Part shown: positions 26,791 through 27,727 of the stretch, in pieces
How the letters are laid out: every line of letters starts with the position of its first letter
Numbering within the stretch: position 1 is the first letter of the stretch
DNA from: Eledone cirrhosa
Taxonomy: Eukaryota
Length of the DNA: 64,000 bases
Assembly (NCBI GenBank): GCA_964016885.1
Contig: OZ024757.1
Coordinates: 40,734,001 to 40,798,000, forward strand
Direction of reading: 5' to 3'
Translations under genes and position numbers: made by a program
Notes under the pieces: generated by a model
Database searches by the model: none
Seen by the model: only the letters and a program-made list of their open reading frames with translations
Told to the model about the DNA's origin: nothing

Positions 26791-27240
26791 TACAATATTA
26801 AATAAATGGAAACTATATTTATAAAACCATATTTATTTCATTATATATATTCAGGGATATCATATTAACAATATGCTATGCCTTCCTCAGACAAAATACA
26901 ATATAAACAGTTTTATAGATAAATAGATTTGACATACCGTAACAACATCGACTTGTATTTGAAAAAGTTGAATTGGCATTTTTCAAATACAAGTCGATGT
27001 TGTTACGGTATGTCAAATCTATTTATCTATAAAACTGTTTATATTGTATTTTGTCTGAGGAAGGCATAGCATATTGTTAATATGATATCCCTGAAATATA
27101 TATAATGAAATAAATATGGTTTTATAAATATAGTTTCCATTTATTTAATATTGTAAATATACTCCAAATACTTGTCGAGTGATTTTATATCAGTTATAAA
27201 TATTTACTAGTTGTAACCAACAATTTAAATATAACTTTCC
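26791..27240. mobile_element. Palindromic hammerhead-bearing element (family B, copy 1)
   Basis: ~176-bp inverted arms 26791-27155 with a 12-bp loop. CTGAGGA...GAAAT-atat-ATA hammerhead at 27047-27112, mirrored in the left arm. Confidence 0.8.
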
Positions 27241-27310
27241 ATATATATTTATATAATATATATATATATATACACACATATATATATATATATATAAATA
27301 CATATATATA

Positions 27311-27727
27311 TATACAATATATTAATAAATGGAAACTATATTTATAAAACCATATTTATTTTATTATACATATTTCAAGGGCCACCAAAGCAAATTATGG
27401 TGCGCTTTCATCAGATAAAATACAATACAGATTAGTTTTATAAATAAATATTGACATACCCTGAAAAAGTTAAAGTTCCATTTTTTTAGGGTATGTCAAT
27501 ATTATTTATAAAACTAATCTGTATTGTATTTTATCTGATGAAAGCGCACCATAATTGCCTTGGTGGCGCTTGAAATATGTATAACAAAATAAATATGGTT
27601 TTATAAATATAGTTTCCATTTGTTAATATATTGTATATTTACTCCAATAATTTGTTGAGTGCTTTATATCAGTTATAAAAATATTTTTAGCTTGTTGTTT
27701 CCCAACAAATTAAATATAACCTCTGCA
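27311..27727. mobile_element. Palindromic hammerhead-bearing element (family B, copy 2)
   Basis: ~155-bp inverted arms 27311-27638. Hammerheads at 27357-27422 (-) and 27527-27591 (+): CTGATGA-AAGCGCACCA...TGGTGGCGCTT-GAAAT-atgt-ATA. Confidence 0.85.

What the first reader, a model, noticed from the sequence alone, without database searches (positions are those of the whole stretch)
26791..27727. Two adjacent, diverged palindromic elements with a hammerhead in each arm and the same fold-back point
Seen: both have 155-176-bp arms, a 12-nt loop of related sequence (GTTGAATTGGCA and GTTAAAGTTCCA), outward-pointing hammerheads and an ~85-bp one-sided 3' extension into (TA)n. Their stem II sequences differ entirely yet both still pair, while the arms within each copy are nearly identical. 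Inference: stem II replacement implies selection on structure. The shared loop suggests a non-coding palindromic ribozyme element that moves as a unit or regenerates the same hairpin at each insertion. A transcript from either strand would carry a ribozyme.
Basis: partly seen in the sequence, partly recalled or inferred. Interest (0 to 1): 0.72.

Follow-up and report, generated by a model that had tools for sequence, protein, structure and literature searches.

The report
Stub insertions of Penelope-like retrotransposons
The two mirror-image elements are short head-to-head copies of the front ends of two common jumping genes (Hydra-type Penelope-like retrotransposons) sitting in one TA repeat, likely made when both ends of a cut chromosome each primed a copy of the element's RNA, so they are a known kind of insertion rather than a new mobile ribozyme.

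Summary
Both palindromes are real, with hammerhead motifs in the arms and a one-sided 87-93 bp tail. The interpretation mostly fails. Each is the terminal repeat (pLTR) of a protein-coding Hydra-clade Penelope-like element found here: element 1 is 98.9% identical to a 3.8-kb family with an intact 737-aa telomerase-like ORF, and element 2 belongs to a sister family. The loops are not homologous: they come from opposite arms and different positions, element 2's is unique in the genome, and fold-back points vary among copies. Long (1-6 kb) insertions share the layout: one tailed and one tail-less arm, either of which may be longer. This fits two cDNAs primed from both target strands at two fixed RNA sites and joined head to head; 15 of 69 family-1 arms stop within 3 nt of an initiator-like start. 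A duplicated hairpin lies 7-9 nt behind each priming site. One palindrome riding in another element carries ADAR-type A-to-G edits (16 places). The scan found twin priming, the hairpin and ADAR fossils before on other DNA of this genome.

The parts
26793..26966 (-). Element 1, tail-less arm: inverted copy of the family-1 pLTR ending at the inner start site; hammerhead core 26890-26884 with one A missing from GAAA
   Evidence: alignment to L171 pLTR
26967..26978 (-). Element 1 loop: positions +2..+13 after the putative RNA start, carried only by the tail-less arm
26979..27153 (+). Element 1, tailed arm: sense pLTR copy with type I hammerhead (core 27055-27061, GAAA 27093-27096, predicted cut after 27104)
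27154..27240 (+). Element 1 tail (inner to outer start site); holds the first copy of the start-site hairpin motif at 27161-27185
27241..27314 (.). (TA)n target shared by the two independent insertions; (TA)n also at about 26600-26792 and 27727-28045
27315..27468 (-). Element 2, tail-less arm: inverted family-2 pLTR copy with intact hammerhead (core 27414-27408)
27469..27480 (+). Element 2 loop: about +21..+32 of the family-2 pLTR, carried only by the tailed arm; junction unique in the genome
27481..27633 (+). Element 2, tailed arm with hammerhead (core 27535-27541, GAAA 27572-27575, predicted cut after 27583; one stem I mismatch)
27634..27726 (+). Element 2 tail; start-site hairpin motif at 27641-27665
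29169..29540 (+). Third family, same layout (inverted arm, sense arm with hammerhead at 29344, tail), different fold-back point
45400..54655 (.). Long example in the same window: 4.2-kb arms 99.7% identical, Hydra-like ORF remnants at the apex, tail on the left arm only
62000..62240 (-). Fourth family: inverted hammerhead arm (core at 62097) joined directly to a tail-only partner

Best explanation
Each palindrome is a two-armed stub insertion of the terminal repeat of a Hydra-clade Penelope-like retrotransposon, likely made by two cDNAs primed from opposite strands of one (TA)n cut and joined head to head. Shown: identity with the pLTR of coding elements; two fixed outer ends; (TA)n targets; variable junctions; either arm longer; pile-up of inner ends at one base; a repeated hairpin behind each end. 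Inferred: the element's protein nicks both strands; one cDNA starts at the inner site (about 50 nt past the ribozyme cut site) and the other at the outer site (88-93 nt further, giving the tail); each site is set by a hairpin 7-9 nt downstream on the RNA; when copying starts in the 5' pLTR the cDNAs run off the RNA's 5' end and give stubs, and when it starts in a downstream pLTR it gives kb-long arms. The uncut hammerhead is copied through; it is inherited cargo and is predicted to be inactive inside the palindrome.
For: Partner: a pattern at element 1's apex has 517 matches, many in inverted pairs 1-6 kb apart and direct pairs 3.8 kb apart; element 1's right arm plus tail differs at 3 of 262 positions from the pLTR of L171; intact 745-codon frames in L172 and L176 start just after the tail; the model (pLDDT 90) best matches telomerase RTs. 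Family 2's tail runs into an ORF 67-74% identical to it in L289-L291. Layout: 17 of 20 long family-1 loci have one tailed and one tail-less end in inverted orientation; by hand the tail-less arm is longer in 6, the tailed arm in 7, unclear in 7. In 58 short copies the tail-less arm is longer in 37, the tailed in 6, about equal in 15. Tail-only partners exist (e.g. L118, L128, L138). In a positional sample of 69 family-1 arms, 65 of 66 terminal 3' ends lie at one of two sites and 15 of 69 5' ends lie within 3 nt of one A in TCACT (hand count). Arms of one copy differ by 2.6 on average against 6.7 between copies, with left-left equal to right-right equal to left-right (family 2, 28 copies). Hairpin spacing 90-95 nt tracks tail length 88-93 nt in 6 of 6 full 5' regions, with an A-U to G-C change between the two hairpin copies. 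In vitro, an Anolis element cuts and extends both strands from two internal RNA sites and needs no ribozyme cleavage (PMC11167929).
Against: No RNA data: no RNA holder was listed, so the RNA start is inferred from a pile-up and a motif. The test for a copied cap G was inconclusive. Element 2's arms stop 21 and about 33 nt short of the putative start, so this copy is not a full run-off. Arm concordance fits snap-back or gene conversion as well. The 58 short copies were best hits to the two elements and are biased to their layout. Pfam found no domain in the ORF itself (GIY-YIG in 8 of 69 homologues at weak E-values), so the endonuclease rests on motifs. The in vitro element is from another clade and primes without homology, while these ends show short TA overlaps.
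Confidence: 0.75

Rival explanations
1. Same origin from Hydra pLTRs, but the mirror arm is made by snap-back: one nucleic acid folds on itself and is copied back (self-priming, as proposed for rotifer Penelope elements), possibly with a short second cDNA supplying only the tail.
For: Private variants are mirrored in both arms (15 cases in family 2); several junctions are near-perfect hairpins with 1-7 nt loops; self-priming on an antisense template is proposed in PMC3846280.
Against: A single cDNA that includes the tail cannot give a longer tail-less arm, seen in 37 of 58 short and 6 of 20 long loci; a cDNA without the tail cannot give the tail; many junctions delete tens of bases or leave only part of the tail. 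In the edited passenger family the edits lie on the ORF's sense strand, which points to a sense template.
Confidence: 0.17
2. One reading: a non-coding palindromic ribozyme element with a fixed loop that transposes as a unit.
For: Thousands of arms exist (2,186 and 8,122 exact matches); both cores are intact in 52 of 59 short copies; one palindrome junction recurs at 16 places.
Against: Junctions vary; no left/right lineages; the loops are non-homologous and one is unique; identical ends frame coding insertions; the 16 recurring copies share their flanks (one flank differs in 2 of 16) and so moved as cargo of a 5.7-kb host element.
Confidence: 0.05
3. The palindromes arose after insertion, by deletion of the middle of long inverted insertions or by assembly error.
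For: Long inverted repeats are unstable (general knowledge); long and short forms share their ends.
Against: Random deletion would not put 15 of 69 ends within 3 nt of one base of a 3.8-kb unit; junctions carry fillers and small duplications; both families stop at the same ACT motif.
Confidence: 0.03

Closest known systems
Hydra clade of Penelope-like elements (Craig et al. 2021, PMC8557442; e.g. Hydra-1_Obim, Hydra-1/2_Amil)
   Same: C-terminal endonuclease layout, RW[K/R], DKT, CxCX5C, CxxC and CxH motifs, canonical hammerhead core, (TA)n target; motif-by-motif likeness to the printed Hydra alignments (by eye).
   Different: Unit 3.8 kb with a long 3' UTR (published ones mostly under 3 kb); Hydra-1_Obim is listed without a pLTR; tail 88-93 bp rather than 30-40; stub palindromes and their pile-up are not described in the passages I saw.
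Inverted 5'-truncated copy plus one-sided tail of EN+ PLE insertions (PMC8557442, PMC3846280) and paired opposite-strand hammerheads 100-700 bp apart in Schistosoma (PMC4209133)
   Same: Head-to-head arms, tail on one arm only, hammerheads on opposite strands, an initiator-like TCACT in the pLTR.
   Different: Here both arms are cut down to the pLTR front end in large numbers and the ends can be counted; the papers leave the mechanism open or propose self-priming.
Poseidon element of Anolis in vitro (Frangieh et al. 2024, PMC11167929)
   Same: Two internal start sites define the tail; both strands are cut and extended; hammerhead cleavage is not needed.
   Different: Other clade; start sites inside the ORF in an AC-rich stem-loop without target homology, whereas here they lie in the 5' UTR, end in short TA overlaps and each is followed by a repeated hairpin.
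Non-LTR retrozymes (PMC7229834, search listing only; bioRxiv 10.64898/2026.07.22.740005, first part read)
   Same: Short non-coding type I hammerhead repeats related to PLE pLTRs.
   Different: Retrozymes are head-to-tail tandem units; these are head-to-head stubs with no sequence of their own.
Twin priming of LINE-1 (recalled, not read here)
   Same: Two primers on one insertion give an inversion.
   Different: L1 twin priming copies two different parts of one RNA; here the same part is copied twice from two fixed sites.

Membership tests
EN+ Penelope-like element (partner families) | Single ORF with telomerase-like reverse transcriptase | tested here: met
   Intact frame in L172/L176; top fold matches are telomerase RTs, E 9e-10; Pfam alone found nothing.
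EN+ Penelope-like element (partner families) | C-terminal GIY-YIG endonuclease | tested here: inconclusive
   GIY-YIG-like residues (Y617, Y630, G632, R641, H645) invariant in 69 sequences; Pfam GIY-YIG only in 8 of 69 homologues, best E 0.001; no endonuclease among the listed fold hits.
EN+ Penelope-like element (partner families) | pLTR from partial tandem, inverted truncated copy, one-sided tail | tested here: met
   direct repeats 3.8 kb apart; 17 of 20 loci with inverted tailed and tail-less ends.
Hydra clade | RWK-like motif, DKT in place of DKG, CxCX5C linker, CxxC and CxH around the catalytic E/N, no CCHH | tested here: met
   Read in the translation against the definition in PMC8557442 section 11; RWR instead of RWK.
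Hydra clade | Insertion into (TA)n | tested here: met
   (TA)n or CA/TA repeat at the left end in 54 and at the tail end in 58 of 59 short copies.
Hydra clade | Placement in the RT phylogeny with published Hydra families | not tested
   Published sequences were only seen as text; no tree was built with them.
Type I hammerhead (dimer-type, PLE-associated) | CUGANGA core, stem II, GAAA, short self-complementary stem III, UH site, stem I | tested here: met
   3 of 4 arms in the finding; 150 distinct variants, 0 in reversed controls; stem III changes between TATATA, TATGTA and TGCGCA keep self-complementarity. Stem II opens with A-U or G-U, not the usual G-C; no Rfam hit.
Type I hammerhead (dimer-type, PLE-associated) | Self-cleavage | not testable with these tools
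   No assay; no RNA holder listed.
Non-LTR retrozyme | Head-to-tail tandem units each with a hammerhead | tested here: not met
   The two elements are inverted pairs from two different families.
MITE / fold-back DNA transposon | Symmetric terminal inverted repeats and a fixed internal structure copied as a unit | tested here: not met
   Ends are asymmetric (tail on one side) and centres vary.

The most novel reading that the evidence does not exclude
Hydra-type Penelope elements insert by obligatory twin priming: a protein dimer docks on two copies of a small hairpin in the 5' UTR, which act as a ruler for the two start sites and so for tail length, and extends both target strands. The thousands of stub palindromes are run-off products that map the RNA's 5' end, and when such stubs ride inside other elements' RNA they are hyper-edited by ADAR and the edits become inherited DNA.
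Probability: 0.55. Interest if true: 0.62.

Novelty: new member of a known kind. Interest (0 to 1): 0.36.

Why it matters
As an object it is ordinary: two more copies of abundant Penelope-like families. Its value is as a data set. How Penelope-like elements make their inverted copies and one-sided tail is called undefined in PMC8557442. These young, near-identical families with an intact ORF, two exact start sites and a repeated hairpin make that question directly testable in vitro. The edited passenger copies show that such palindromes are transcribed into double-stranded RNA and that A-to-G edits can be written back into the genome. Earlier notes of this scan reached the same points on other DNA of this genome, so this adds two further families rather than a new idea.

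Tried and rejected
Rfam gave no hammerhead match; the miRNA-precursor hits only reflect a long hairpin. A search for Pfam PF26215 was not possible in this library; the GIY-YIG family search (596 candidates, 150 scored) found other Penelope-like families, not the partners, and the nearby matches in L101, L104 and L109 were neighbours in shared (TA)n targets. My first hammerhead scan used a 4-nt stem III and missed these families; corrected. Cap-G idea: in family 2, 195 arms have C at the position after the far end against 1,197 with A/G/T (first 100 listed: 81 G, 14 T, 5 A by hand); of 30 C loci 1 continues upstream, 10 are explained by the partner arm and 5 abut (TA)n; in family 1 only 1 of 7 exact stops has C. 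Left open. A general G-T versus A-C scan of 377 inverted pairs for more edited copies was confounded by microsatellites: L188 proved an artefact and L009's own arms are unedited. Neither element of the finding shows A-to-G bias. Sequencing runs: no RNA holder listed. Contigs of three runs of one study laid on the pLTR show (TA)n loose ends near the inner site, but they may come from the source sample and are not counted as support. Sequence searches of solved structures gave nothing significant. Literature searches that found no description of twin-primed stub palindromes or of edited Penelope copies: (open-access library only; the supplement of PMC8557442 was seen only as search passages and was cut when stored; bioRxiv supplements are closed).

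Full report
Observation. The two palindromes are present as described. Element 1 spans 26793-27240 and element 2 spans 27315-27726; each has two arms, a 12-nt loop and a tail on the right, and (TA)n lies on both sides and between them. They align at 341 of 400 aligned positions. Each arm holds a type I hammerhead motif pointing outward, but the left arm of element 1 lacks one A of GAAA and the right arm of element 2 has a stem I mismatch. Rfam does not detect these motifs. My own scan found 150 distinct variants in the window and fetched loci and none in reversed controls.

Copy number and variation. The window lies in a 3.0-Gb animal genome; named homologues of the partner protein come from a cephalopod and earlier scan notes call the genome an octopus. 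Exact 23-24-mers give 2,186 arms for family 1 and 8,122 for family 2. In the 60 best hits the outer ends are fixed, but the centre varies widely between copies. The loops of the two elements are not homologous. Element 1's loop is pLTR +2..+13 read from the tail-less arm; element 2's loop is about +21..+32 read from the tailed arm, and its junction occurs once in the genome.

The autonomous partners. A pattern reaching one base beyond the usual apex of family 1 has 517 matches, many as inverted pairs 1-6 kb apart or direct pairs 3.8 kb apart. Twenty such loci show that arm plus tail is the pLTR and 5' UTR of a 3.8-kb element; L172 and L176 hold intact frames that begin just after the tail. Element 1 differs from the L171 pLTR at 3 of 262 positions. 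The predicted structure is confident and its best matches are telomerase reverse transcriptases. The motifs RWR, DKT, CxCX5C, CxxC and CxH fit the Hydra clade as defined in PMC8557442 (section 11; supplement passages). Pfam has no hit on this ORF and only weak GIY-YIG hits in 8 of 69 homologues. Family 2's tail runs into a sister ORF, 67-74% identical, in L289-L291.

Anatomy of insertions. Of 20 long family-1 loci, 17 have one tailed and one tail-less end in inverted orientation; the tail-less arm is longer in 6, the tailed in 7, unclear in 7 (by hand). Among 58 short copies (L014 had no anchor, L025 duplicates L026) the counts are 37, 6 and 15 about equal (the local alignment overran in some family-2 copies, so only the direction is used; the sample is biased to the query layout). 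In a sample taken by position along one chromosome, 69 arms were scored: 38 end at the inner site, 27 at the outer site, 3 read on into the ORF and 1 is cut; 15 stop within 3 nt of the A in TCACT, 12 stop within about 14 nt on either side and 42 run far upstream (hand count). Family 2 arms pile up at the matching A in CCACT. A TCACT initiator-like motif was noted in rotifer pLTRs (PMC3846280, passages). The two arms of one copy are closer to each other than to other copies (2.6 against 6.7 differences in family 2; family 1 is too young to tell, 0.6 against 0.9), with no left or right lineage.

Start-site hairpin. In 6 of 6 complete 5' regions a motif of the form (A/G)CTC-loop-GAG(T/C)GCTTT lies 7 nt behind the inner end and again 9 nt behind the outer end; motif spacing (90-95 nt) follows tail length (88-93 nt), and the closing pair changes from A-U to G-C between the copies. 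Related motifs precede the start codon in other Hydra-like families here and follow the hammerhead in a published consensus printed just before Hydra-1_Obim. That it docks the reverse transcriptase is inference.

Mechanism. A single folded-back cDNA cannot give both a longer tail-less arm and a tail. Two cDNAs, primed on opposite strands at two RNA sites and joined head to head, give every layout seen: long or short arms, either arm longer, tail-only partners and solo arms. The Anolis element cuts and extends both strands from two internal sites that delimit the tail, uses uncut RNA and is predicted to be a dimer (PMC11167929, parts 1-2 of 4 read). Short stubs would arise when copying starts in the 5' pLTR and runs off the RNA's 5' end. 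This last step is inferred; a test for a copied cap was inconclusive and no RNA run was listed. Element 1 fits a near-complete run-off; element 2 stops 21 and about 33 nt short.

The ribozyme. Core, stem I and a self-complementary stem III are kept across at least five families while stem II is replaced. This is the dimer-type hammerhead known from PLE pLTRs, and close opposite-strand pairs were already reported in Schistosoma (PMC4209133, parts 1-2 of 4 read). The constraint is best placed on the autonomous lineages. In a transcript through either palindrome the core is predicted to be fully paired.

An edited passenger. One family-1 junction recurs at 16 places with shared flanks, inside a 5.7-kb Hydra-like host element. 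In 15 copies (L298 left out as a chimera) 42 of 82 adenosines in the paired arms are G in at least one copy against 2 of 61 in loop and tail (Fisher p 7e-11 on sites); 27 sites are shared by at least 14 copies, T-to-C is seen at 2 single sites, and the edited strand is the host ORF's sense strand. The edits hit GAAA of the hammerhead. This is the pattern expected of ADAR editing of a hairpin RNA later copied into DNA; ADAR as the cause is inferred. The two elements of the finding are not edited.

Comparison and verdict. Works like, and by motifs belongs to, Hydra-clade Penelope-like elements; the inverted copy with one-sided tail is a known feature of the class (PMC8557442, passages). It is not a retrozyme array (bioRxiv 10.64898/2026.07.22.740005, part 1 of 5) and not a unit that moves itself. 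Eight searches of the open library found no account of the stub palindromes, the repeated hairpin or edited Penelope copies, but earlier notes of this scan report all three on other DNA of this genome; I had reached the main reading before opening them, and they are not independent evidence. Novelty: new member of a known kind. Interest 0.36.

Noticed in passing
L297-L312 (16 places; e.g. L299, L306, L307): A family-1 palindrome carried inside another Hydra-like element has 26-36 A-to-G changes per copy on one strand, confined to the paired arms, with nested extra edits in some copies, as if edited in more than one round.
   Followed up: yes
window 45400-54655: Long head-to-head Hydra-like insertion with 4.2-kb arms 99.7% identical, ORF remnants at the apex, hammerhead-like core at both ends and a tail on one arm; 86-88% identical to the host family of the edited passenger.
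   Followed up: partly
window 29169-29540, 62000-62240, 36024-36269, 10030-10215, 12930-13136: Further stub palindromes or single arms of other hammerhead-bearing families in (TA)n, with fold-back points that differ from the two elements.
   Followed up: partly
L101:7400-9001: Tandem units of about 480-510 bp, each with a type I hammerhead and a (TA)n run: a retrozyme-like array.
   Followed up: no
L091, L103, L104 pLTRs: Other autonomous Penelope-like families end in (TA)n with the same inverted short arm and tail and carry hammerhead-like cores that depart from the consensus (UUGAAAA in place of CUGANGA).
   Followed up: no
L253, L257, L216 (family-2 pLTR upstream of the putative start): An octamer-like ATTTGCAT lies about 25-45 nt upstream of the family-2 start in most long copies; label recalled, function untested.
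   Followed up: no
L245, L198, L104:6650-6800: Junctions where an arm is joined to a piece of a different family or to a third fragment, showing that end joining can be promiscuous.
   Followed up: no
window 51600-54000 and flanks of L297-L312: The 3' UTR of this host family is rich in TG-interrupted TA repeats on its sense strand; repeated A-to-G editing of self-complementary (TA)n could produce this, but compound microsatellites confound the test.
   Followed up: partly
window about 100-6470: Tandem array with a 282-bp period, part of which matches 34856-34966 in inverted orientation.
   Followed up: no
window 56326-60510, minus strand: Long open frames (677, 414 and 392 codons) of an element or gene not examined.
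   Followed up: no
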